IMG/VR virus record: IMGVR_UViG_3300047678_000431
Location: 1-64,000 of that record
DNA: 64,000 nt
Reading direction: 5' to 3' (one strand)
Source: a virus
Shown: piece after piece, positions 217 through 62,095 of the stretch
How the letters are laid out: each line of letters starts with the position of its first letter
How positions within the stretch are numbered: the first letter of the stretch is position 1
Made by a program: the position numbers and the translations under genes
The notes under the pieces: generated by a model
Seen by the model: the letters and a program-made list of their open reading frames with translations, nothing else
Databases searched by the model: none
What the model was told of the DNA's origin: nothing

Positions 217-677
217 TGCGCGTGATGTTTCGCGAAATACGCCGGGGCGTTTGCGCAAAAGGTTTTCGGGGGGGTCGATCCTAGGCATCCGAAGACGACG
301 GCGATCGGGACCACGCGATTCGCGGGCGTGTAATAGTATCGCGTGATGAGTTCGTATCCACTGTCGGCAAAACGTTGCGGCGCAAGAGTCTTGCCGGTCG
401 CCGTCTTCCACGCCTGCCGGTAGTTCGCGGCGAGATAATCGAGTTCGTGCAACGCGGAATCTGAATCCGCATTGCGCCAGTCGTCGCCGGTTGTGATTGC
501 GTGCGTGCGTTCTTGCGTGCGTGCGTGCGTGCTTCCATACGAATGTTGATAGGCGGCCGATCCGACGGTTGTATAATCGAGAAGACCGGCCTGAGCGGAT
601 TGGTCCGCGATCGCGCTCGTCGCGCAGGTGAGAGAGAGAAGGGCCGTTGCAATCGTTGCCGTGATGATGTGTCGCAT
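213..677 (-). CDS. secreted hypothetical protein
   Basis: Sec-type signal peptide (MRHIITATIATALLSLTCATSAIA); AAGGAG RBS upstream; contains a tetramer array read as THARTQERTHA. Confidence 0.75.
   Translation of the reverse strand: MRHIITATIATALLSLTCATSAIADQSAQAGLLDYTTVGSAAYQHSYGSTHARTQERTHAITTGDDWRNADSDSALHELDYLAANYRQAWKTATGKTLAPQRFADSGYELITRYYYTPANRVVPIAVVFGCLGSTPPKTFCANAPAYFAKHHAH
498..533 (+). repeat. tetramer array A, (TGCG)n with TTCT/TGCT variants, 9 units
   Basis: tgcg tgcg tgcg ttct tgcg tgcg tgcg tgcg tgct, inside CDS 213-677. Confidence 0.9.
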
Positions 678-14844: not shown

Positions 14845-16743
14845 GTGAAAAGATTGCTTTCATGCGTTCTTGCGTGCGTGTATGCGTGCGTTCTTGCGTC
14901 TTGTGATAACACGCCGACTCCGCAACCGATCGTCGTAAGCCCGACGCCCGTCGTCTCGGCCGCCCCGATCCCGACGCAAGTACCGACGGCCACGCCGACG
15001 CAACCGCCGACGCAACCGCCGACGCCCGTTCCGACAATCGCGCCGACTCCGATTCCGACGGTTGCGCCGACCATTGCGCCGACGCCCATTCCGACGATTG
15101 CGCCAACCATTGCGCCGACCATCGCCCCGACGCCGGTGCCGACAATCGCGCCGACGCAGAGTACTACCCTCGCGCCGACCCCGGTTCCCACCGTGGCGCC
15201 TACCGTGCGCCCGACGCCGATCCCGACGGTTGCCCCGACGCCGGTGCCGACTGTTCGACCGACGCCGATTCCGACGGTTGCCCCGACGGTTGCGCCGACA
15301 CCGATCACGATCATCATCTCGCAGGGAACACCGACGCCGTCCCCTATGTCTGCCCCTACTGGAACGCCGACCTCTGTTCCGACTACCTCGCCGATCGTAG
15401 GGGCGGCACCGGCACACTGGGCGAGTTTGTACGGGGAATTCGATTGCACGACGGCCGCGAATTACACGCCCGCGCAGTGGGCCGTTCTCGGGCAATATAT
15501 CAATATCAGCGACCGCGTTTGCGCGCCTGAGATTGCGAGTGCCGAAGCCGTCGGCGTGACATCGGGCACCTACACCGATCCGACGCTGCCGTGTACCGCG
15601 ACGTCGACGACGTCATGTTATAGCTTCAATGAGGCGTCGAACTATTCGTCCGCATCATGGGCGCGGACGTGTGGCGGCGCGCAAATCTACCTCGGCGACC
15701 CAAGTGACGGGCACAATACCCGCACGAACCCCGGCGCGCGGTCGCTCGTGACGGATTTTCAAAACTACGCCGTTTTGCCATTTAAGCAAGCGGGCGGCCA
15801 GTTTATCCTCGCCGATAATTTATACAAACCGACGGCCGACGGGGAATACACCGGCAGGCCCGGGGGAACGCCGGTGAGCGGTTCGGCGGCTTGGTGTAAT
15901 TACACCGATGCAACGTGGATCGCGAATTATACGACGTTCTTTTCAGCCCTTTCGCTGCCGGTCATGTATAACGGCGACACCGAGCCCGATCTCGCGGCGA
16001 TCACGGCGTCGCCGCAAGTCAAATGGGGGATGTGCGAAGACTGTCTCTCATTCGGATTCAACGAATCGGCGGACCCCGGTCGCCTCAAAGAGCGCCCGCC
16101 GTTCTGGCAAAACGAACTCGGCGCGGGTTTGGTGACGATGGGAAACGGAAAATCCTGGTTCGTTTTCACGCACGGATACAACGAACCAAAAAACAACGAC
16201 GTTCAGAACTATGTCCTTGCGTCATTATTATTGATTTATGAGGACGGAAAAACCGGGTGGATGATGGACGGTGACACGAAGAGCGGCATCAATACGCCGG
16301 TCGGGGTGTACTTCGTTCCGACGCAACCTCTTGTCGCATCAAATGCGATCACCTCGATCGAATCGCTTAACGTCGGGGGCGCGTATGTGCGCGAGTATGC
16401 CGCGTGTTATCTTTACGGCAAAAGCGTGGGCGCATGCGCGGCCGTCGTCAACCCGAACCCCTCGGGATCGGTGCCGATGCCGAAGCTCTCTCGCGCGTAT
16501 GCCGGGTCGGTTTCGATTGATAATTGGTGCGGCACGGCCTCGGCGCCGTCAAACCTTGGGGGTTCGTATTGCTATAAGGGCGCGACGACGCAATGGGGCG
16601 ACACGGGGAGCGTCTCGATCGTTCCGGCCGTCGTTCCGGCCGTTATTCCACCGGCCGAAGCGTACATCTTCACACAGAACGCAAAATCCGGCGGGTCGCG
16701 CCGTCACCATACACGGCGGCGACTGATTCAAGGGCATTCCTAA
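14845..16743 (+). CDS. predicted lipoprotein: Pro/Thr linker plus putative glycoside-hydrolase-like domain
   Basis: Lipobox LAS-C; about 165 aa PT repeat; aromatic/Cys-rich catalytic-size domain (FILADN, WGMCED, YVREYAAC). Confidence 0.65.
   Translation: MKRLLSCVLACVYACVLASCDNTPTPQPIVVSPTPVVSAAPIPTQVPTATPTQPPTQPPTPVPTIAPTPIPTVAPTIAPTPIPTIAPTIAPTIAPTPVPTIAPTQSTTLAPTPVPTVAPTVRPTPIPTVAPTPVPTVRPTPIPTVAPTVAPTPITIIISQGTPTPSPMSAPTGTPTSVPTTSPIVGAAPAHWASLYGEFDCTTAANYTPAQWAVLGQYINISDRVCAPEIASAEAVGVTSGTYTDPTLPCTATSTTSCYSFNEASNYSSASWARTCGGAQIYLGDPSDGHNTRTNPGARSLVTDFQNYAVLPFKQAGGQFILADNLYKPTADGEYTGRPGGTPVSGSAAWCNYTDATWIANYTTFFSALSLPVMYNGDTEPDLAAITASPQVKWGMCEDCLSFGFNESADPGRLKERPPFWQNELGAGLVTMGNGKSWFVFTHGYNEPKNNDVQNYVLASLLLIYEDGKTGWMMDGDTKSGINTPVGVYFVPTQPLVASNAITSIESLNVGGAYVREYAACYLYGKSVGACAAVVNPNPSGSVPMPKLSRAYAGSVSIDNWCGTASAPSNLGGSYCYKGATTQWGDTGSVSIVPAVVPAVIPPAEAYIFTQNAKSGGSRRHHTRRRLIQGHS
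14855..14898 (+). repeat. tetramer array B, 11 units
   Basis: tgct ttca tgcg ttct tgcg tgcg tgta tgcg tgcg ttct tgcg, encoding the signal-peptide core CVLACVYACVLA. Confidence 0.9.
14911..15400 (+). repeat. coding Pro/Thr repeat (CCGACG-rich)
   Basis: PTxxPT repeats in the lipoprotein linker. Confidence 0.85.
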
Positions 16744-18817: not shown

Positions 18818-19087
18818 TCACCGAGGCGCGTCCTCGCGGATGGCCGAGCCCTTGCTTGCTTTTGCTTGATTGTAGAGATCGGTAATGAAGGCCGGATCGA
18901 CCTTGAAGAGTTCTGCGATGCGTTTGAGGTTGCGGACGTGAGGGATTGCGTGCGCATGTTCCCACATGGAAACGCTAACCCGCGAGACACCAAGGCGTTC
19001 GGCAAGGGCCGTCGACGTTAGCGGTAAGCTTCGACGCGCATTGCGCAAAAATTCCGAGAAAGCCGTCGGCGGCGAATAGCGCAACAT
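18818..19087 (-). CDS. XRE/Cro-C1 family HTH regulator
   Basis: FLRNARRSLPLTSTALAERLGVSRVSVSMWEHAHAIPHVRNLKRIAELF. Confidence 0.85.
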   Translation of the reverse strand: MLRYSPPTAFSEFLRNARRSLPLTSTALAERLGVSRVSVSMWEHAHAIPHVRNLKRIAELFKVDPAFITDLYNQAKASKGSAIREDAPR

Positions 19088-20257: not shown

Positions 20258-20536
20258 ATGAATAAACTCGGACCGAAGGCGTCAATCTCGCTCACCAAAC
20301 GCGAACGCGAAGTCCTGGTCCTGGTCGGTTCGGGTGCCTCAAATATGGAGATCGCCGCCGATCTCAATATCGGGTATGAAACCGTGATCACGCACGTTCA
20401 AAAGGCGATCGGTCGATTGCGTGCCCGGAATCGGATCGAGGCGTATAGTATTGCCTTGAGATCCGAGATGATCAAGATCTCTGAGATTCCGATCGGGAAG
20501 ATTCCGCGCGTGAACCGCGAAGTCGTGCCTCGGTGA
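20258..20536 (+). CDS. stand-alone LuxR-type HTH regulator
   Basis: LTKREREVLVLVGSGASNMEIAADLNIGYETVITHVQKAIGRLRARNRIEA. Confidence 0.9.
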   Translation: MNKLGPKASISLTKREREVLVLVGSGASNMEIAADLNIGYETVITHVQKAIGRLRARNRIEAYSIALRSEMIKISEIPIGKIPRVNREVVPR

Positions 20537-32984: not shown

Positions 32985-34721
32985 ATGCCGTCATTGATTT
33001 CCTCAATACAAAAAAGCGTCGCGCGCATCCTCGCCGGTCCCGACATTAACATTCCGCGTAAAGGTGCGATCTCTCCGGTTTCAATCAAACAAGATCGTCA
33101 GTTTATGGACGGCGGTCGGATCGAGCCGCGCAACATCATTGCGCGCAATAACCTGCAATCGCTTGCCGAGCGTGATGATGTGATCGTCGCCCTTCGCCGC
33201 GTGTTGCGCAACGGTATCGGAAATCTCAAATGGCACATAGTCCCCGATATTGACGCAATCGAAGCCGACATCAAGCGATGGAAATCGACCGTTGCGCTGA
33301 ACCTTGCCATGCCGGGCATGCACATGACGTTTCATCCGCAGGCGATGACGCATGAGTTTTATGCTGGTGCAACCGGTGAGTTGCGCGATCTTCTCGTTTC
33401 TGAAGCTGAAACAGGTGCCGAGTTCGAAACCTCGACGCGATTGCATCAATTTTTCGAAAACATTCTCGCCGCGCATAGCGTGATCGCGGAAAGTCACGTC
33501 GCCGAGGTGAAGTCCCTCTTCGATAAACCGAACGCAAATGACACCTGGAGAAGTTTCATTTCGCGGGTTGTTGATCAGTTGTCGCTCTTCGATGCCGCTG
33601 CAATCGTGAAGAATCCGATGATGAACGAAGATCGCATCGGTGAGATCTATCTTCTGCCCGGCGAAGACGTGCGCGTCTATCGTCGGCGCGATCTTCTCCA
33701 ACCGATTCCGCCCTTTACGGCGTTTGATTGGTCGGTCAATGATCGGATCTTCGCGTATTTCAATGCGTTTGAAATGTGCTATATTACCGCGAACCCGCAG
33801 CAGAACGGATACGGGAAACCGCCGCTTGAGGCGCTCGTACAACAAATGCTCGGATCAATTTCCGGTGATCAGTATCTTCTCGAATTCTTCGCAAATAATA
33901 ACATGCCCGCCGGTATCTTTGACCTCGGCCCGAACGTTGATCAAGGTGAACGAGACGCAGTCGAAACGCACGTGAACAATCAAGCGCGCAAAGGTTTGCG
34001 GCGCATTATGTTCGTGTCGAACATGGATGGCGTCAAGGGATTTATGCCCATGCCGCAGCAGCCGATGAAAGATAATGACATCGTCAACATGTTCGACATG
34101 TGGACGAAGCGAAAAGCTGCCGTCTTTGGGCTTTCTCCGAATGACATCGGACATACGCAAGATATGCATCTTGCAAATGCGGATAATCAAGCCGAACTGA
34201 CGCAATCTCGCGGCATTGATTCGATCGCCAAAGCAATCGAGAACGAACTCAATGTCCATATCGTCAAAGGTACGATGTGGCGCCGTAATAATCCCGAAGA
34301 CGTCAATGATCCGACCGGTATTCCGATGCCGGTCTTTCCCTTTCAAGACGTACGATTCGAATTTATTACCGGCGAGAAGGATGAGAACGCCGATCTCTCT
34401 GATCGTGATCTCAAACTTTGGGGCATGGGCGCCCTGTCGACAAACGAGATTCGCAAGTCGCATGGATTGCCGCCGGTCCCCGGCGGTGATACGCATGTCG
34501 TCAATCAGCAGGTGACGATGAAAGTCGATGACCTGCCGAATCTTCCCGCGCCGACGCAAATGGACACTGAGGTCCGCTTGCCCGATGGCCGCGAGCGTGA
34601 TGAACGTCCAGGCGCAAACGCGCAGCAAAACGAGCAAAGACCGCCGACGCCGTCACCGGAACAGGCGGAAAAAAACCTTACCGCGTTAGCTCATAAGCTC
34701 GCGCAGATCGTCAAAGGGTGA
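32985..34721 (+). CDS. portal protein
   Basis: KPN...W..F, YGKPPLE, FF.NNNMPAGI, AVFGLSP..IG, STNEIRK..GLPPVPGGD; first in the head module. Confidence 0.9.
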   Translation: MPSLISSIQKSVARILAGPDINIPRKGAISPVSIKQDRQFMDGGRIEPRNIIARNNLQSLAERDDVIVALRRVLRNGIGNLKWHIVPDIDAIEADIKRWKSTVALNLAMPGMHMTFHPQAMTHEFYAGATGELRDLLVSEAETGAEFETSTRLHQFFENILAAHSVIAESHVAEVKSLFDKPNANDTWRSFISRVVDQLSLFDAAAIVKNPMMNEDRIGEIYLLPGEDVRVYRRRDLLQPIPPFTAFDWSVNDRIFAYFNAFEMCYITANPQQNGYGKPPLEALVQQMLGSISGDQYLLEFFANNNMPAGIFDLGPNVDQGERDAVETHVNNQARKGLRRIMFVSNMDGVKGFMPMPQQPMKDNDIVNMFDMWTKRKAAVFGLSPNDIGHTQDMHLANADNQAELTQSRGIDSIAKAIENELNVHIVKGTMWRRNNPEDVNDPTGIPMPVFPFQDVRFEFITGEKDENADLSDRDLKLWGMGALSTNEIRKSHGLPPVPGGDTHVVNQQVTMKVDDLPNLPAPTQMDTEVRLPDGRERDERPGANAQQNEQRPPTPSPEQAEKNLTALAHKLAQIVKG

Positions 34722-54342: not shown

Positions 54343-55155
54343 ATGTCGTTTTTTTATGCGACCGATCCGACGGTCATTGCGGGGATACCGGCCGCAACGA
54401 CGACGGTCGAAAGTCCGATGCTCTTGTCCGTCGGGCAGGCAAGCGGGATCGGGGTTGCCTCGGCGCTCCTTCCTGATCAAGTGACGAATGCGTCGGTTGC
54501 GTCGATGCAGCTTTTGCGTACGCTTCCCGGCGGGATGCAAATGCCGGTGGATACCCGAGACGTCGATCGCAATTCGCGATGGATGAACCTCTTCGATCAA
54601 AACCCGGCCGATGGTCAGATTGCGACATACGCGGTCGTCGCCATTTCTGAAGACGGCACGCAATCGAGTGAATCAAATTCGATTACATACACGGCGTACG
54701 GAAATCCGCCGCCCCTCGCGTCGGCCGGTGGTATTTCAGCGGGGGCGCTTGGGACCTACCCGCTTCTCGGGAGTGATGTCTATATCAACCCGATTTCCGG
54801 TGAGGCCGTCATCGGTCCGAATGGTGACCTCTTGACGGTCAACGGCCTCGCACTCCTCGGCCAGGATCTCAATACGCGCATTCGCACGAAGATCGGCGAA
54901 CTCGTGTTTCACCCGGATTTCGGCCTGTTTGGTGGCCTGATCGGAAGCGGTCAATCCGATCCCGCGACGATGGCAAACACGCTGCGCACGCGGGTCATTG
55001 ACGCGATCACGGCTGACGCGCGTGTCTATCAGCTTGACGAGGTTATCATTGCGCACCCGTATTTTGACGGGTGGCAAATCTCATACCTTGTGTATGCGAT
55101 CGGCGTCGAGGACCCGCTACGCGGAAACCTTGTGTATCCCTATTTGAACGGCTAG
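54343..55155 (+). CDS. FnIII-like domain fused to a baseplate wedge/sheath-initiator (gp25/DUF2634-like) domain
   Basis: YAVVAI..DG..S..SN; GDLLTVNG...QDL..RIRT..GEL.FHPDFG...D.RV. Confidence 0.75.
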   Translation: MSFFYATDPTVIAGIPAATTTVESPMLLSVGQASGIGVASALLPDQVTNASVASMQLLRTLPGGMQMPVDTRDVDRNSRWMNLFDQNPADGQIATYAVVAISEDGTQSSESNSITYTAYGNPPPLASAGGISAGALGTYPLLGSDVYINPISGEAVIGPNGDLLTVNGLALLGQDLNTRIRTKIGELVFHPDFGLFGGLIGSGQSDPATMANTLRTRVIDAITADARVYQLDEVIIAHPYFDGWQISYLVYAIGVEDPLRGNLVYPYLNG

Positions 55156-55175
55156 GCTTCGCGCTTTTTCTCCCG

Positions 55176-55211
55176 TGCTTGCGTGCGTGCGTGTATGCGT
55201 GCGTTCGTGTT
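55176..55211 (+). repeat. tetramer array C, 9 units, intergenic
   Basis: tgct tgcg tgcg tgcg tgta tgcg tgcg ttcg tgtt. Confidence 0.9.
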
Positions 55212-55240
55212 TTTGCGTACCTTCGAAAGGCGGCGCCCGG

Positions 55241-56548
55241 ATGTCGACATCCACCGTTTCAACGACGTTTTCGACGACGAATCCATCGGCGTCGCTGCCG
55301 TCCTATCCGACGGCTGCCGAGATTCTGATCGGTATTCAACAATCGGTTCAAAAACTCAATGGACTTATCACAAATTTCAATGCGGGCGGCGTGACGGAAA
55401 CCTACCTTGAAGGACTCTCGATCCTTTTAGGTTCGGATTCTTCGACGTTGCCGAATGTGACGATCGAGGGGGCTTATGAACTTCTCGCAACCGTGGCCGA
55501 ATCGGCCTATGCATCCACCGCAAAAGGACCGGCACTTGATCTCAAGGGCCTCGATGTCGGCGTTGAACGCAAGCAGGCGACCACCGCGACGGCACCATTG
55601 CAATTCGCTCTTCCCCAACCGGCGACCGCGCCCGGTTATGTTATAGCGGCGAATACCATTTGCAGCGCAAACCCGGCCGACCCGACGCAAGGCCCGATTC
55701 TCTTTCAAACGACCGAGGCCGTCGTCGTCCCGACGGGGCAAACGCTTGCCCCGAATACCGTGCCGAGTGTGGCGATGGTCGCCGGTTCAAACGGTAACGT
55801 CATCGCCGGTGCGATCAATACCTGTATCACAAACGGTCAGTTGATTGTCACGAACCCCGGCAAGGCAAGCGGCGGGACCGATACCGAGATTGACGACGGC
55901 AATGATGGGGGGTATCGCAAGCGCGTCCTTGCCGCGATCCCAAACTCCTCACAATGCACGATCGCGGCCATCGAAAACGATGCGCTCGCGTTTCCGATTA
56001 CCTCGGCCGTTCTCGTAGAAAATACCGCTGACGACGGCGTCACGCGGGAGCTTGGGCGCGGACAACTCTACATCGACGACGGGTCGGGTGATCTCGGCAG
56101 TAGCTCAAACCCAAATTATGCATCGTTTGTCGCATTGCAAAACGCGTTTGATACGGGACTTTACCGCGCGGCCGGAACGCAAGTGCATGTTCGGGGTTCC
56201 GAATCGGTTGCGGTGGTTATTTCGCTTTCCATTACCGCAAGTACGCAAGCGATTACCCTCGGCGCATCCGAGGCGAGTATTGCATCCGATGTGCAGTCGG
56301 CGATTTACTCCTATGTTCAATCGCTTGTGATGGGGCACCCTGTTGACGTTGCGTCGATCGTTGCAATCGCAAAGAATGTCTTGTATAACGGCGGCGATAC
56401 GAATGAGGTCGCAAACGTCAACGTTTCAAGCGTGCTCATCAATGGATCGAATTCTGATTTCACGCCGCAAGTGTATCAGCTTCCGCGCGTGCTCCCGAAC
56501 ATCTCGTCGATCACGGTCAACGTGACCGGCGTGTCTTCCTACGTGTAA
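55241..56548 (+). CDS. baseplate J / Mu gp47-like protein
   Basis: ITNFNAGGV, TAKGPALD..G...GVERK.A, AGSNGNV.AG.I, GGTDTE.D...YRKR. Confidence 0.92.
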   Translation: MSTSTVSTTFSTTNPSASLPSYPTAAEILIGIQQSVQKLNGLITNFNAGGVTETYLEGLSILLGSDSSTLPNVTIEGAYELLATVAESAYASTAKGPALDLKGLDVGVERKQATTATAPLQFALPQPATAPGYVIAANTICSANPADPTQGPILFQTTEAVVVPTGQTLAPNTVPSVAMVAGSNGNVIAGAINTCITNGQLIVTNPGKASGGTDTEIDDGNDGGYRKRVLAAIPNSSQCTIAAIENDALAFPITSAVLVENTADDGVTRELGRGQLYIDDGSGDLGSSSNPNYASFVALQNAFDTGLYRAAGTQVHVRGSESVAVVISLSITASTQAITLGASEASIASDVQSAIYSYVQSLVMGHPVDVASIVAIAKNVLYNGGDTNEVANVNVSSVLINGSNSDFTPQVYQLPRVLPNISSITVNVTGVSSYV

Positions 56549-59419: not shown

Positions 59420-60166
59420 ATGAGTATCATCACCGCGCATTGGTCTGCGACGTCGCCCGATGATTCGGGCGTGTATCACCGGCTCGGCGATTATCATGCT
59501 GAGTTCGGATTGATCAAACCGTTGTCAAACACGGTCTTGACGCATTGCCGAAATGCAGTCCACCCGGCCGATGTGCCGTGGAGTGATCTTTCACATATCT
59601 TCGCGGTTTGGAAGAATTACAATTTCGATACGGCGACATCATACGGGACGTGGATGTGGAATCACGATTTCCGTGATAATACTCCGAATATTGAAGTCGC
59701 CGCGTTGTGTATGGGTGGGTCGGATGTTTGCACGACCGATTTCGGCGCGCATCCGTTTACAAAGGCGCATGCGTGGATGATGGCCGGTGTCATTGCGCGG
59801 ATCGCAAAACTCAAAGGCATTGATCCGATGCAATCATTCGAGGCGGTCAATGGGTACATGAACGGGCCGCTCTTTGCGGTTTCCACGCATGGCGAGCGTG
59901 CGTACCAAACGGAGAATATGCAAGTCGAGAACGCCGATCGTGGATACTCCGGGTATCGCGGATACGGCGCGTATTCTGCCGACCCCGACATGCGATGGGA
60001 TCTTGACGTCCTCGACGTTGCCGATCTCAAGGCGCTCGGAAGTTTTCAAACCGCATACGCTGCGACGAAATCTTCGGCGGCATGGCTACGCAACGCGGCC
60101 GCGTCGATTATTCACGCAAACTACACGGCCGACATGTGGGGCCTTGACGTGGCCGTCGCGCGTTAA
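59420..60166 (+). CDS. endolysin, N-acetylmuramoyl-L-alanine amidase-like
   Basis: IITAHWSA, DYH, H...W..N, V.THGE.A, RWDL Zn-amidase pattern. Confidence 0.7.
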   Translation: MSIITAHWSATSPDDSGVYHRLGDYHAEFGLIKPLSNTVLTHCRNAVHPADVPWSDLSHIFAVWKNYNFDTATSYGTWMWNHDFRDNTPNIEVAALCMGGSDVCTTDFGAHPFTKAHAWMMAGVIARIAKLKGIDPMQSFEAVNGYMNGPLFAVSTHGERAYQTENMQVENADRGYSGYRGYGAYSADPDMRWDLDVLDVADLKALGSFQTAYAATKSSAAWLRNAAASIIHANYTADMWGLDVAVAR

Positions 60167-60441
60167 ACCTTCGAGCGATGATTCGCGAGCATGTCTGTGA
60201 TGGCGTGCTCGATGAGTGTTTGCTTCTTTACCCCGGTCCGTTTGTAGAGGGCATCAAGCTCGAGCCAAACGGATTCACTCAAACGCACGGACATGGGTAC
60301 GGTGGCTTTTGGCCCCGTGCTTGTTTGCGTGCGTGCGTGCGTGCGTTCTTGTATGTGTGTTTTCGGACTCGTGGCGAGGTCTTCTAACGAGACAGCGCCG
60401 CTTGAGTTCTGGGCATGTTGACGGGACGCACGCGCGCTCAT
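60163..60441 (-). CDS. ribbon-helix-helix DNA-binding protein with disordered N-terminal tail
   Basis: TVPMSVRL-SESVWLELDALYKRTG-VKKQTLIEHAITDML; ATGA overlap with the ATPase. Confidence 0.85.
   Translation of the reverse strand: MSARASRQHAQNSSGAVSLEDLATSPKTHIQERTHARTQTSTGPKATVPMSVRLSESVWLELDALYKRTGVKKQTLIEHAITDMLANHRSKV
60318..60365 (+). repeat. tetramer array D, 12 units, inside the RHH gene
   Basis: tgct tgtt (tgcg)5 ttct tgta tgtg tgtt ttcg. Confidence 0.9.
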
Positions 60442-61304
60442 GGTGTTTCTCCGTGCCCGAGGGCGTGAGCGGCACGGGTGACGTGCCGGATGTGAATGCG
60501 GGTCGACTCAAGATCGGCCGCGTAGGACATGGCTCGGTTCGCGATCGTACATGCAATACGCGGCACGCCTCGCGAATATTCGTAGAGTAAGGCGATTGCG
60601 CCATCGTCGAAAAGGTTCTTCTTCGCCCCGGCGACTTTAAGCCGGTGCGCAATCATTTCTTCAAGGTCGTGAGCATCGAGGCGACTGAGTTGCGTGTGCA
60701 TCGTCAAACGCGAATGAAACGCGGCATTGCCTTTGAGCACGTCGATCATTTCGGGATTCTGTCCGAACAGAAGAATTTGCACAAGCGGTCGGTCGACGGC
60801 GGTCATGTTACAAATCGACAAAAGCGCGTGAATGCCGGTCGGTCGTAAGAGATGCGCGTCGTCGAGTAAGATCACGACGGTATCGCCTTGCTCATGCTGC
60901 CGCCACGCTTCGGCCTCGAGCTTGCGTAGGGACGTTTCACTTTTTGCCCGCTCGCGCGTTTCAATCCCGAGATCGCGATTGATTTCGAGATGTATTTGCG
61001 CCTCGGTTTGCCGGGCGCCGCCGGGAACCCGGTAGAGTGACGCAACAGAATTGCGCTCCCCTGCTTCGCGGGCGAACAGCGATGCGAGCGTCGTTTTGCC
61101 TGTACCGATTTCGCCTGAAATACAGGCGATACCGAGGCGTCCGTTTATGACGTCGCGGCCGTGCTCGAGCGCCTCGCGCATCGAGCTTGTCACGTATGCG
61201 AATTTCGCATGCGGTGAAATCCGAAACGGATACTCTTTGAGATCGAACCATGTGGCGTAGGGCGAGAGCGTTTCCTCGCAGGGGGTCGTTTTGAATGTAT
61301 CCAT
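60438..61304 (-). CDS. ExeA/GspA-family AAA+ ATPase (soluble domain only)
   Basis: Y..WFDLKEYPFRISP N-terminus; Walker A GEIGTGKT; Walker B ILLDDAH; LFGQ; SR finger; SRGVPR. Confidence 0.92.
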   Translation of the reverse strand: MDTFKTTPCEETLSPYATWFDLKEYPFRISPHAKFAYVTSSMREALEHGRDVINGRLGIACISGEIGTGKTTLASLFAREAGERNSVASLYRVPGGARQTEAQIHLEINRDLGIETRERAKSETSLRKLEAEAWRQHEQGDTVVILLDDAHLLRPTGIHALLSICNMTAVDRPLVQILLFGQNPEMIDVLKGNAAFHSRLTMHTQLSRLDAHDLEEMIAHRLKVAGAKKNLFDDGAIALLYEYSRGVPRIACTIANRAMSYAADLESTRIHIRHVTRAAHALGHGETP

Positions 61305-61314
61305 CTTCTCCGCT

Positions 61315-61346
61315 TGCGTGCGTGCATTCGTGTATGCGTGCGTGCG
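61315..61346 (+). repeat. tetramer array E, 8 units, directly upstream of the ATPase RBS
   Basis: tgcg tgcg tgca ttcg tgta tgcg tgcg tgcg. Confidence 0.9.
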
Positions 61347-61378
61347 TCTCTTTTTCCTCAAAGTAAGGAGTCCTCGTT

Positions 61379-61750
61379 ATGAACGCGACCACATCGCAGG
61401 CCCTCGGGTTCTCGCTCAATTTCGTCATCGGTATCGTCGTCGGCGCGCTTGCGTCAAAGTTCACGCCGATCGCAAAAACGCAAGGCGCAATCGTCGGCAA
61501 TGAAGTCGGAACGGTCGTCGTCAATTCGGTCAATGCGGATATGGCGCCCGAATTGCGCCCGGCGGTTCTCGCGGAATTGAAGTCGATCGCGACGACCCTT
61601 GAGGCGAAGTCGCAAACCGTCGCGCAAACAGCCTCGCAGATTCTCACGAAGGTCGCCCCCTCGATTCCAACGGCGACTTCGGATCAGATTGCGCAAGTGC
61701 TTGCCGATTTCGTACTCACCTTTGAGGCCGGGTTCATCGCCGAACTCTAA
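61379..61750 (+). CDS. membrane protein, possible holin
   Basis: AAGGAG RBS; N-terminal TM, helical C-terminus; near the endolysin. Confidence 0.5.
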   Translation: MNATTSQALGFSLNFVIGIVVGALASKFTPIAKTQGAIVGNEVGTVVVNSVNADMAPELRPAVLAELKSIATTLEAKSQTVAQTASQILTKVAPSIPTATSDQIAQVLADFVLTFEAGFIAEL

Positions 61751-61751
61751 A

Positions 61752-61791
61752 CGCACGCATGCATGAAAGCAAGAACGCACGCATGCATACA
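61752..61791 (-). repeat. tetramer array F, 10 units, opposite orientation
   Basis: Minus strand tgta tgca tgcg tgcg ttct tgct ttca tgca tgcg tgcg. Confidence 0.88.
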
Positions 61792-61924
61792 CACCCTAAA
61801 GTTCGTTTCTCGGGCGCCGATAGAGAGGTATCGCCGTTTTCCGCACGATGCACGTTCCGTACTGACGCGCTTCGTGCGCAGAAGCGAGCGGCGATCCATG
61901 AGCGGCGCACGGAAGCGTAGCACT

Positions 61925-62023
61925 GCCCGCCTGTTTTCTCTCTCCGTGGGAACAGGCGGGCGTTCTTTCTTTTGAGCCGTGAGAAAACGCGTGATGACGT
62001 TGTTTTCTCACGGCTCTTTTTTT
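61925..62023 (+). terminator. two tandem intrinsic terminators
   Basis: GCCCGCCTGTT/AACAGGCGGGC + T-rich tail; GAGCCGTGAGAAAAC/GTTTTCTCACGGCTC + T7. Confidence 0.8.
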
Positions 62024-62066: not shown

Positions 62067-62095
62067 TTGATCTTACGTCATATGTTTGTTATACT
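62067..62095 (+). promoter_or_regulatory. sigma70-like promoter for the recombinase gene
   Basis: TTGATC-17bp-TATACT. Confidence 0.7.

What the first reader, a model, noticed from the sequence alone, without database searches (positions are those of the whole stretch)
60163..61791. Candidate new partition/segregation system: ExeA-type AAA+ ATPase + RHH protein + tetramer 'centromere' arrays
Seen: a translationally coupled two-gene operon (ATPase 60438-61304, then a 92-aa protein with a disordered N-tail and C-terminal ribbon-helix-helix). Three of the six (TGCG)n-type arrays sit at this operon: inside the RHH gene (D), directly upstream of the ATPase RBS (E) and about 450 bp upstream in inverted orientation (F). 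Established: NTPase gene + small RHH adaptor + short tandem repeats at the operon promoter is the layout of type Ib (ParA-ParG/omega) and type II (ParM-ParR) partition loci. The ATPase here is not ParA (no deviant KGGxGK Walker A), actin-like or tubulin-like. It is the ExeA/GspA clade, related to the DNA-filament-forming MuB/TnsC ATPases. It has no TM or peptidoglycan-binding C-terminus and no transposase or T2SS neighbours. Inference: a phage-plasmid segregation or positioning system with an AAA+ motor class not among the classical par types.
Basis: partly seen in the sequence, partly recalled or inferred. Interest (0 to 1): 0.88.

Follow-up and report, generated by a model that had tools for sequence, protein, structure and literature searches.

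The report
Phage ExeA-like ATPase with RHH partner
An 85-kb phage from moss metagenomes carries an ATPase of a secretion-system family whose usual membrane partner is replaced by a small DNA-binding protein, next to unusual 4-bp-periodic DNA arrays; it may be a new way of handling or segregating phage DNA, but that function is untested.

Summary
On the minus strand, an intact AAA+ ATPase gene (60438-61304) overlaps by ATGA a 92-aa gene (60163-60441). That protein has a disordered tail and a C-terminal ribbon-helix-helix (RHH).

The complete 85-kb phage genome has exactly seven period-4 (TGCG-type) arrays, against about 0.03 expected. Three of them lie at this operon. The genome has no integrase, rve transposase, ParA, ParB or TubZ.

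New here:
- The ATPase belongs to a well-supported clade (100/100) that is sister to bacterial GspA/ExeA ATPases.
- In about 130 of 160 bacterial loci, the coupled downstream gene is a GspB-type membrane protein.
- In the only two clade members whose context I could read (this phage and contig L003), the coupled partner is instead a tail-plus-RHH protein.
- The clade also has a conserved PGGxRQTE insertion in the region that contacts DNA in related AAA+ ATPases.

So a DNA-directed ATPase-adaptor pair is well supported. The partition reading stays an attractive analogy to delta-omega and ParF-ParG, at about 0.3. Plasmid lysogeny is unshown, RHH-array binding is untested, L003 lacks such arrays, and four arrays sit far away inside or between unrelated genes.

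This scan has noted other ExeA-like/RHH pairs on other DNA. I did not check those notes.

The parts
60438..61304 (-). ExeA/GspA-clade AAA+ ATPase, 288 aa, with intact Walker A (GEIGTGKT), Walker B (LLDDAH), HSR arginine-finger motif and GxPR sensor-2; clade-specific PGGxRQTE insertion at residues 94-101
60163..60441 (-). 92-aa partner: disordered N-terminal tail (residues 1-49, short helix at 19-22) and C-terminal ribbon-helix-helix (50-92); its start overlaps the ATPase stop as ATGA, with a GGAG Shine-Dalgarno
60310..60373 (+). Array D: about 12 tetramers T[GT][CT]N with a (TGCG)5 core, inside the tail-coding part of the RHH gene. Its 30-mer is identical to one in array G in the TerS-like gene.
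61303..61358 (+). Array E: fills most of the 74-bp gap between the ATPase start (61304, minus strand) and the divergent gene 61379-61750; it abuts the ATPase Shine-Dalgarno
61744..61799 (-). Array F: inverted copy that begins at the base after the stop of gene 61379-61750. Together with E it brackets that gene as a 36-nt, 78% inverted repeat.
490..541 (+). Array A: inside a minus-strand gene (213-677) for a protein with a signal peptide; it is read there as ...THARTQERTHA...
14851..14906 (+). Array B: encodes the hydrophobic core and lipobox of the signal peptide of the 632-aa lipoprotein gene 14845-16743
55164..55223 (+). Array C: in the intergenic gap between the virion-module (probable tail/baseplate) genes 54343-55155 and 55241-56548
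61379..61750 (+). Divergent 123-aa gene with an N-terminal TM helix and no known family, bracketed by arrays E and F. Whether it belongs to the system is unknown.
61974..62016 (+). Perfect 15-bp inverted repeat followed by a T-run: likely terminator of the gene-90 unit. It separates that unit from the RecT/O/DnaC-like early operon, whose promoter-like site is at 62067-62095.

Best explanation
This is a two-protein, DNA-directed AAA+ module derived from the GspA-GspB (ExeA-ExeB) pair.

Shown:
- The ATPase is intact and belongs to a distinct clade sister to bacterial GspA.
- Its translationally coupled partner is a tail-plus-RHH protein instead of the membrane scaffold GspB, both here and in one distant relative.
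- The genome has seven 44-56-bp arrays of about 11-12 tetramers, three of them at the operon.

Inferred:
- RHH dimers bind cooperatively along the arrays, about one dimer per 8 bp, as MetJ, omega and ParG do on tandem short repeats.
- Binding at array E, which abuts the ATPase ribosome-binding site, autoregulates the operon.
- The flexible N-tail docks onto and regulates the ATPase.
- The ATPase oligomerises on DNA through its ISM region, where the clade has gained a conserved R-Q-T loop.

Most likely use: keeping a non-integrating phage genome positioned or segregated. The adaptor-bound arrays would locally switch off a DNA-bound ATPase pattern. This is the logic of delta-omega and ParF-ParG, and also of MuA clearing MuB from nearby DNA (my own knowledge of the Mu target-immunity diffusion-ratchet model).

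I put the general statement (RHH couples the ATPase to DNA) at about 0.5-0.6. I put the specific segregation/positioning role at about 0.3.
For: - ATGA overlap plus Shine-Dalgarno.
- The clade P0001-P0007 plus L003 has 100/100 support against 24 bacterial GspA-type sequences.
- L003 has a coupled 114-aa partner whose only Pfam hit is RHH_1 across nearly the whole model (E 0.046). It aligns with our RHH domain at pairwise E 0.096.
- 131 of 160 bacterial and metagenome loci have a coupled partner starting M-S-I-I-x-D/E-A-L-K-K. The proteobacterial ones carry PF16537 T2SSB. The literature confirms GspA-GspB co-location and natural fusions (PMC9239104).
- The fold is closest to the DNA-binding AAA+ ATPases Cdc6/ORC, TnsC and MuB.
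- The catalytic motifs are invariant.
- The clade-specific PGGxRQTE insertion sits at the start of the helical insert after strand 2.
- Seven arrays against about 0.03 expected, three within 1.5 kb of the operon.
- No integrase, transposase, ParA, ParB or TubZ.
- A lambda-like O/DnaC-like replication module and no phage DNA polymerase was seen among the genes scanned, which points to host-replisome use.
- An XRE-type HTH gene sits at a divergent junction.
Against: - No evidence that the phage is temperate or episomal.
- No homologue of the RHH was found in 1.84 billion representatives, so linkage rests on two loci.
- L003 has no tetramer arrays, only a pair of 26-nt direct repeats upstream.
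- Four arrays lie inside or beside unrelated genes, and the TerS-like HTH protein also carries one in its own gene, so another protein could be the binder.
- No canonical promoter is near any array.
- All characterised relatives of the ATPase act on envelope assembly or transposition.
- DNA binding by this ATPase is inferred from its clade only, and its net charge is not raised.
Confidence: 0.3

Rival explanations
1. The RHH is only a transcriptional (auto)repressor. It sits on the arrays near the 5' ends of a handful of genes: its own operon, gene 90, a secreted protein, a lipoprotein, a tail gene and terS. The ATPase keeps a GspA-like envelope role, for example interfering with host secretin or pilus assembly (superinfection exclusion) or helping release.
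For: - Six of the seven arrays lie within about -40 to +150 nt of a gene start.
- Omega-type RHH proteins are global repressors (own knowledge).
- The nearest relatives of the ATPase are GspA and PEP-CTERM-type envelope ATPases.
- The operon follows the virion genes and lies beside a small membrane-protein gene.
Against: - The GspB-type partner that links GspA to the envelope is absent, and a DNA binder sits at exactly the coupled position in two divergent members.
- The ATPase has no TM or peptidoglycan-binding part.
- There are no promoters at the arrays.
- Array orientation relative to the genes is mixed.
Confidence: 0.2
2. The arrays have nothing to do with this operon. They are ORF-neutral dispersed DNA elements. 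A tetranucleotide repeat encodes the same 4-aa repeat in every frame and has no stop codons. They would serve as recombination linkers between gene modules, as Z-DNA- or hairpin-prone structural elements, or simply spread by gene conversion. The ATPase-RHH pair would then have an unrelated function.
For: - All arrays are alternating pyrimidine-purine tracts.
- They lie in coding and non-coding DNA on both strands.
- D and G share an exact 30-mer.
- D and E flank the ATPase gene as direct repeats, and E and F flank gene 90 as inverted repeats.
- The phage encodes RecT.
- The T-strand RNA can form 12-bp G-U-rich hairpins.
Against: - Three of the seven cluster at one operon that encodes a protein of a fold known to bind tandem short repeats.
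- The 4-bp phase with T at every fourth base persists through substitutions over 44-56 bp, which suggests selection on a periodic contact pattern.
- No length variation was seen among the metagenome contigs.
Confidence: 0.2
3. The pair is a replication factor: a split ORC/Cdc6-like initiator or loader (AAA+ plus a separate DNA-binding subunit) that acts on the arrays as origin or auxiliary sites.
For: - Best structural and sequence matches include Cdc6/ORC1 and TIGR02928 at 8e-10.
- The operon adjoins the RecT/O-like/DnaC-like replication module.
- Earlier unchecked notes of this scan read ATPase/RHH pairs on other DNA as replication cassettes.
Against: - The genome already encodes an O-like initiator and a DnaC-like loader in the adjacent operon.
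- The arrays are dispersed over 85 kb, have no adjacent AT-rich unwinding region, and partly lie in coding DNA.
- The pair is transcribed opposite to the replication genes.
Confidence: 0.12
4. A MuB/TnsC/TniB-type transposition target selector, or a defence, anti-defence or toxin-antitoxin pair.
For: PHROG_296 'DNA transposition protein' at 9e-16. TnsC and MuB are among the best fold matches. Some plasmid relatives sit next to DDE transposases. There is a weak BrnA-antitoxin hit for the RHH.
Against: There is no rve transposase in the complete genome (Mu-type DDE models were not searched) and the record has terminal repeats rather than host flanks. There are no meaningful PADLOC matches. The gene order and the ATPase family do not fit known TA pairs.
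Confidence: 0.08

Closest known systems
GspA-GspB (ExeA-ExeB) secretin-assembly pair of type II secretion, including the short cytoplasmic GspA forms and the XrtA/PEP-CTERM-associated ATPase (TIGR03015)
   Same: Closest sequence relatives, at about 30% identity and full length. Shared N-terminal [FY]xL-x3-PF motif. Shared AAA_22 core with Walker A GEIGTGKTT. A partner gene is translationally coupled immediately downstream.
   Different: The partner is an RHH DNA-binding protein, not a membrane protein with the MSIIxDALKK N-terminus and a T2SSB domain. There is no TM or peptidoglycan-binding part and there are no secretion or polysaccharide neighbours. The clade is separate (100/100), with a PGGxRQTE insertion, HSR instead of NQR, and DDAH instead of DEAQ.
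Type Ib partition loci: delta-omega-parS of pSM19035 and ParF-ParG-parH of TP228 (from my own knowledge)
   Same: The gene order is NTPase first, then a small RHH protein with a flexible N-tail. Contiguous short repeats lie at the operon's 5' end and at further sites on the replicon. In those systems the RHH doubles as a repressor.
   Different: The motor here is an AAA+ ATPase, not a ParA/deviant Walker-A ATPase. The repeat unit is 4 bp (or 8 bp), and the arrays also lie inside coding regions. Plasmid status, DNA binding and stabilisation are all untested.
MuB / TnsC / TniB transposition ATPases
   Same: Same AAA+ clade and fold, with a helical insert after strand 2 (Foldseek 7ufi, 7m99, 8xvb). 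These ATPases coat DNA and are switched off locally by a site-bound partner.
   Different: No transposase and no transposon ends. Sequence similarity is weaker than to GspA (PHROG_296 at 9e-16 against TIGR03015 at 2e-36).
Orc1/Cdc6 initiators
   Same: Top structural matches (1fnn, 2qby, 7jgr). AAA+ core plus lid.
   Different: No winged-helix domain. DNA recognition would be supplied by a separate RHH protein. The phage already has an O-like initiator and a DnaC-like loader.

Membership tests
ExeA/GspA family (AAA_22; TIGR03015-like) | AAA_22 ATPase domain above Pfam's gathering score, with intact Walker A and B motifs | tested here: met
   PF13401 at 59.4 bits against a cut-off of 27. The motifs are invariant in A1.
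ExeA/GspA family (AAA_22; TIGR03015-like) | N-terminal [FY]-x-L-x3-P-F motif shared with bacterial GspA-type proteins | tested here: met
   WFDLKEYPF here, against FYxLKExPF in the bacterial relatives.
ExeA/GspA family (AAA_22; TIGR03015-like) | Score above the curated cut-off of the equivalog-type model TIGR03015 | tested here: not met
   125.6 bits against a cut-off of 324.5.
ExeA/GspA family (AAA_22; TIGR03015-like) | Coupled GspB-type partner (MSIIxDALKK N-terminus, TM, T2SSB domain), or a C-terminal TM plus peptidoglycan-binding region | tested here: not met
   The partner is a 92-aa RHH protein. The ATPase model is AAA+ plus lid only.
Type Ib partition system (ParA-type ATPase + RHH adaptor + centromere) | ParA/MinD-type ATPase with a deviant Walker A | tested here: not met
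   The ATPase is AAA+. There is no AAA_31 or CbiA match in the genome beyond a sub-threshold P-loop hit in the DnaC-like gene.
Type Ib partition system (ParA-type ATPase + RHH adaptor + centromere) | Small RHH centromere-binding protein with a flexible N-tail, encoded downstream of the NTPase | tested here: met
   Layout and fold are supported. The RHH assignment rests on three sub-threshold lines.
Type Ib partition system (ParA-type ATPase + RHH adaptor + centromere) | Tandem repeat centromere bound by the adaptor | tested here: inconclusive
   The arrays exist and cluster at the operon. Binding cannot be tested with these tools, and arrays are absent from L003.
Type Ib partition system (ParA-type ATPase + RHH adaptor + centromere) | Resides on, and stabilises, a low-copy extrachromosomal replicon | not testable with these tools
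   The only facts available are the absence of an integrase and the terminal repeats of the record.
MuB/TnsC/TniB transposition ATPases | Cognate DDE transposase and transposon ends | tested here: not met
   No rve match in the complete genome. The record has a 127-nt terminal repeat and no host flanks.
Orc1/Cdc6 initiators | C-terminal winged-helix DNA-binding domain fused to the AAA+ module | tested here: not met
   The 288-aa model ends with the lid domain. TIGR02928 scores 38 bits against a cut-off of 181.
Known anti-phage defence systems (PADLOC) | Match to a defence-system protein model | tested here: not met
   Only P-loop-length hits at E about 1e-3.

The most novel reading that the evidence does not exclude
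A further class of DNA-segregation or positioning machinery. An ExeA/MuB-like AAA+ ATPase, evolved from the GspA-GspB pair by swapping the membrane partner for an RHH adaptor, would act on dispersed period-4 centromere-like arrays to maintain a non-integrating phage genome. Possibly it is one branch of a wider set of AAA+/RHH modules that this scan has also flagged on other DNA.
Probability: 0.22. Interest if true: 0.9.

Novelty: new variant of a known kind. Interest (0 to 1): 0.62.

Why it matters
All established bacterial DNA-partition systems use ParA-type, actin-like or tubulin-like NTPases. An AAA+ motor with an RHH adaptor would be a further type. It would show that the 'DNA-bound ATPase cleared by a site-bound partner' logic of MuB/MuA can be used for segregation.

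Even if the role turns out to be regulatory, the partner swap from GspB (membrane) to RHH (DNA) within one ATPase family is a clean natural example of re-targeting an AAA+ switch. It also gives the poorly understood GspA/ExeA ATPase a tractable soluble relative.

The seven period-4 arrays are ORF-neutral and tolerated in signal peptides and disordered tails. They are an unusual way of placing DNA sites in a compact genome.

Tried and rejected
The contigs of the six closest ATPase homologues (P0002-P0007, up to 86 kb) could not be read. The listing of cluster members gave no accessions.
IMG/VR holds no relative of the ATPase, RecT or gene 87.
- An 18-mer of the array core found only a chance coding match in IMG/VR.
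- GenBank phages: no ATPase hit, and the portal protein is only about 21% identical to anything.
I stopped that step. The resemblance between SLEDLA / SIADELA and SIIxDAL therefore remains an untested impression.
- Arrays as intrinsic terminators: hairpins plus T-rich tails exist in the T orientation, but positions and strands do not fit transcription-unit ends, and shuffles fold equally well for five of the seven.
- Arrays as operators at sigma-70 promoters: no promoter within 200 bp.
- Polarity of array orientation around the genome: compatible with two switch points, but that pattern is expected in about a third of random arrangements.
- Phase variation by slippage: no length variants in the contigs of four runs. 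Joints linking D to E had sides under 30 nt and are probably repeat artefacts.
- No RNA holder was listed.
- Rfam gave only a sub-threshold chance hit, and there are no tRNAs.
- L002 is a giant-virus RFC-like gene and is irrelevant.
Full report
**What the DNA is.** The window is the first 64 kb of an 85,173-bp IMG/VR virus record that CheckV rates complete. Its ends repeat 127 nt, which fits a circular or terminally redundant genome. The same sequence is present without differences in contigs of several moss-metagenome runs.

My gene calls and PHROG/Pfam scans give this layout:
- portal at 32985-34721;
- a long plus-strand virion module running to about 60.2 kb;
- the minus-strand pair studied here;
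- a divergent small gene (61379-61750);
- a hairpin terminator (61974-62016) and a promoter-like site (62067-62095);
- RecT, an O-like initiator, a DnaC-like loader, a helicase, a RusA-like resolvase, a DnaQ-like exonuclease, and a TerS-like HTH protein with TerL at 78.5-80.8 kb.

**The observation.** It is correct in every point I could test.
- The ATPase (60438-61304, minus strand) starts at an ATG preceded by GGAGAAG.
- Its TGA overlaps the ATG of the 92-aa gene as ATGA, with GGAG 7 nt upstream.
- Pfam AAA_22 is above threshold. TIGR03015 (the XrtA/PEP-CTERM ATPase, an ExeA-type model) aligns end to end at 2e-36 but scores below its cut-off.
- The AF2 model (pLDDT 88) is an AAA+ core with a two-helix insert between strands 2 and 3, plus a lid. 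It has no membrane or periplasmic part.
- Foldseek and profile searches put it among Cdc6/ORC, TnsC, MuB and RuvB.
- Walker A, Walker B, the HSR arginine-finger motif and the GxPR sensor-2 are invariant across its close homologues.

**The small protein.**
- It is disordered to residue 49 except for a short helix at 19-22. A strand and two helices follow.
- The only Pfam hit is RHH_3, just below threshold.
- The best Foldseek hits are almost all RHH proteins, though none is individually significant for a 40-residue domain.
- Language-model neighbours are all RHH families.
- One gene caller started the protein at M50, giving 43 aa. The ATGA overlap, the Shine-Dalgarno sequence and the same tail-plus-RHH build in L003 favour the 92-aa form.

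**The arrays.** A scan for at least nine consecutive tetramers T[GT][CT]N finds exactly seven arrays in the genome, against about 0.03 in simulated sequence.
- A, 490-541: inside a secreted-protein gene.
- B, 14851-14906: encodes the signal peptide of a lipoprotein.
- C, 55164-55223: a gap between two virion-module genes.
- D, 60310-60373: the RHH tail-coding region.
- E, 61303-61358: the 74-bp divergent gap, abutting the ATPase ribosome-binding site.
- F, 61744-61799: inverted, starting right after the stop of gene 61379-61750.
- G, genome 78609-78660: outside the window, in the N-terminal tail of the TerS-like gene.

Each array is 44-56 bp with T at every fourth base. Most end in TTCTTG. D and G share an exact 30-mer. 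A tetranucleotide repeat encodes the same four residues in all frames (THAR or CVRA) and has no stop codons, which explains how the arrays sit inside ORFs. All are alternating pyrimidine-purine tracts. Three of the seven lie within 1.5 kb; my scan-statistic estimate for that is about 0.03, which is suggestive but not strong.

**What the relatives show.** This is the main new evidence.
- The six closest homologues (42-56% identity) come from metagenome contigs of up to 86 kb.
- About 160 more distant loci (about 30% identity), from Omnitrophota, Planctomycetota, Hydrogenedentota, Nitrospirota and proteobacteria, were fetched.
- In 131 of these loci a gene starting M-S-I-I-x-D/E-A-L-K-K, followed by a TM helix, lies immediately downstream, usually overlapping the ATPase stop.
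- The proteobacterial versions of that gene carry the T2SSB (GspB) domain. This is the GspA-GspB pair described in the literature (PMC9239104).
- On plasmids, relatives lie in exopolysaccharide loci or next to DDE transposases.
- A maximum-likelihood tree separates our protein, its six close homologues and the soil contig L003 from 24 GspA-type sequences with 100/100 support. L003 is on a long branch.
- L003 (36% identity) has an ATG 8 nt before the ATPase stop. This opens a 114-aa protein with a long tail and a C-terminus (TNIRLGEK...LIEFALHRLLEDL) whose only Pfam hit is RHH_1 over 37 of 39 model positions (E 0.046). It aligns to our RHH domain at pairwise E 0.096.

So both clade members with readable context have a coupled tail-plus-RHH partner where the sister group has GspB. 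The clade also carries a conserved four-residue insertion, PGGx(R/K)(Q/H)T, at the start of the helical insert. That is the part that contacts DNA in ORC, TnsC and MuB by my own knowledge. The clade has HSR and DDAH where GspA-type proteins have NQR and DEAQ.

**What this does and does not show.** It makes a functional ATPase-RHH pair likely (I estimate 0.6-0.7) and a DNA-directed role plausible. It does not show partition.
- Neither RHH has any detectable homologue.
- L003 has no tetramer arrays, only two 26-nt direct repeats upstream of the ATPase.
- No sigma-70-like promoter lies near any array.
- The genome lacks an integrase, rve transposase, ParA, ParB and TubZ. It has an XRE-type HTH at a divergent junction and uses lambda-type O/DnaC-like replication genes. 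This is compatible with a non-integrating temperate phage, but a lytic lifestyle is not excluded.
- PADLOC gives nothing.

**Mechanism I consider most likely.** RHH dimers coat the arrays. Binding at array E autoregulates the operon. The tail engages the ATPase, which assembles on DNA. The pair positions or segregates the episomal genome in the manner of delta-omega or ParF-ParG, with a MuB-like ATPase in place of ParA. I give this 0.3.

The rivals are:
- an RHH repressor with an envelope-directed ATPase (0.2);
- arrays unrelated to the operon, as ORF-neutral recombination or structural elements (0.2);
- an auxiliary replication initiator (0.12);
- transposition, defence or toxin-antitoxin (0.08).

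**Other notes of this scan.** The scan holds unchecked notes of ExeA-like/RHH pairs on other DNA: Asgard chromosomes, an Anaerolineae megaplasmid and a soil phage. They were read there as partition or replication modules. I did not test whether those are homologous to this clade.

Noticed in passing
genome 78508-79161 (outside the window; L165:3508-4161): The TerS-like HTH protein has an 84-residue low-complexity N-tail that contains array G. G shares an exact 30-mer with array D, and both encode QERTHARTQT. A separate 20-nt alternating CG-rich tract lies at 78585-78604, just upstream of G.
   Followed up: partly
window 14845-16743: A 632-aa predicted lipoprotein. Its signal peptide and lipobox (MKRLLSCVLACVYACVLASC) are encoded by array B. 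Interruptions of the TGCG phase keep arginine codons out of the peptide. A long Pro/Thr-rich linker follows, encoded by 12-48-nt tandem repeats (14971-15299).
   Followed up: partly
loci L004-L162: Short cytoplasmic GspA-like ATPases of Omnitrophota, Planctomycetota, Hydrogenedentota and others are almost always translationally coupled to a partner with the invariant N-terminus M-S-I-I-x-D/E-A-L-K-K. The same motif is found on proteobacterial GspB proteins with a T2SSB domain. It is a likely ATPase-docking peptide.
   Followed up: partly
window 61312-61347 and 61751-61786: Arrays E and F form a 36-nt, 78% inverted repeat that brackets the whole 123-aa membrane-protein gene. In a plus-strand transcript the 5' leader and the 3' end could pair.
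   Followed up: no
window 18818-19087 and 20258-20536: An 89-aa XRE-type HTH gene sits on the minus strand at a divergent junction, and a LuxR/GerE-type regulator lies nearby. These are candidates for a lysis-lysogeny or early switch in a genome that has no integrase.
   Followed up: partly
window 60305-60385: Summed contig depth jumps from about 12 to several thousand over array D in all four moss-metagenome runs. TG/CG-type simple repeats from other organisms are therefore abundant in these samples.
   Followed up: no
L003:609-634 and 685-710: A pair of 26-nt direct repeats (81% identical, ending ACAAATCGGG) lies 104 and 28 nt upstream of the ATPase start in the only other clade member with readable context. 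This is a possible operator that differs from the tetramer arrays.
   Followed up: no
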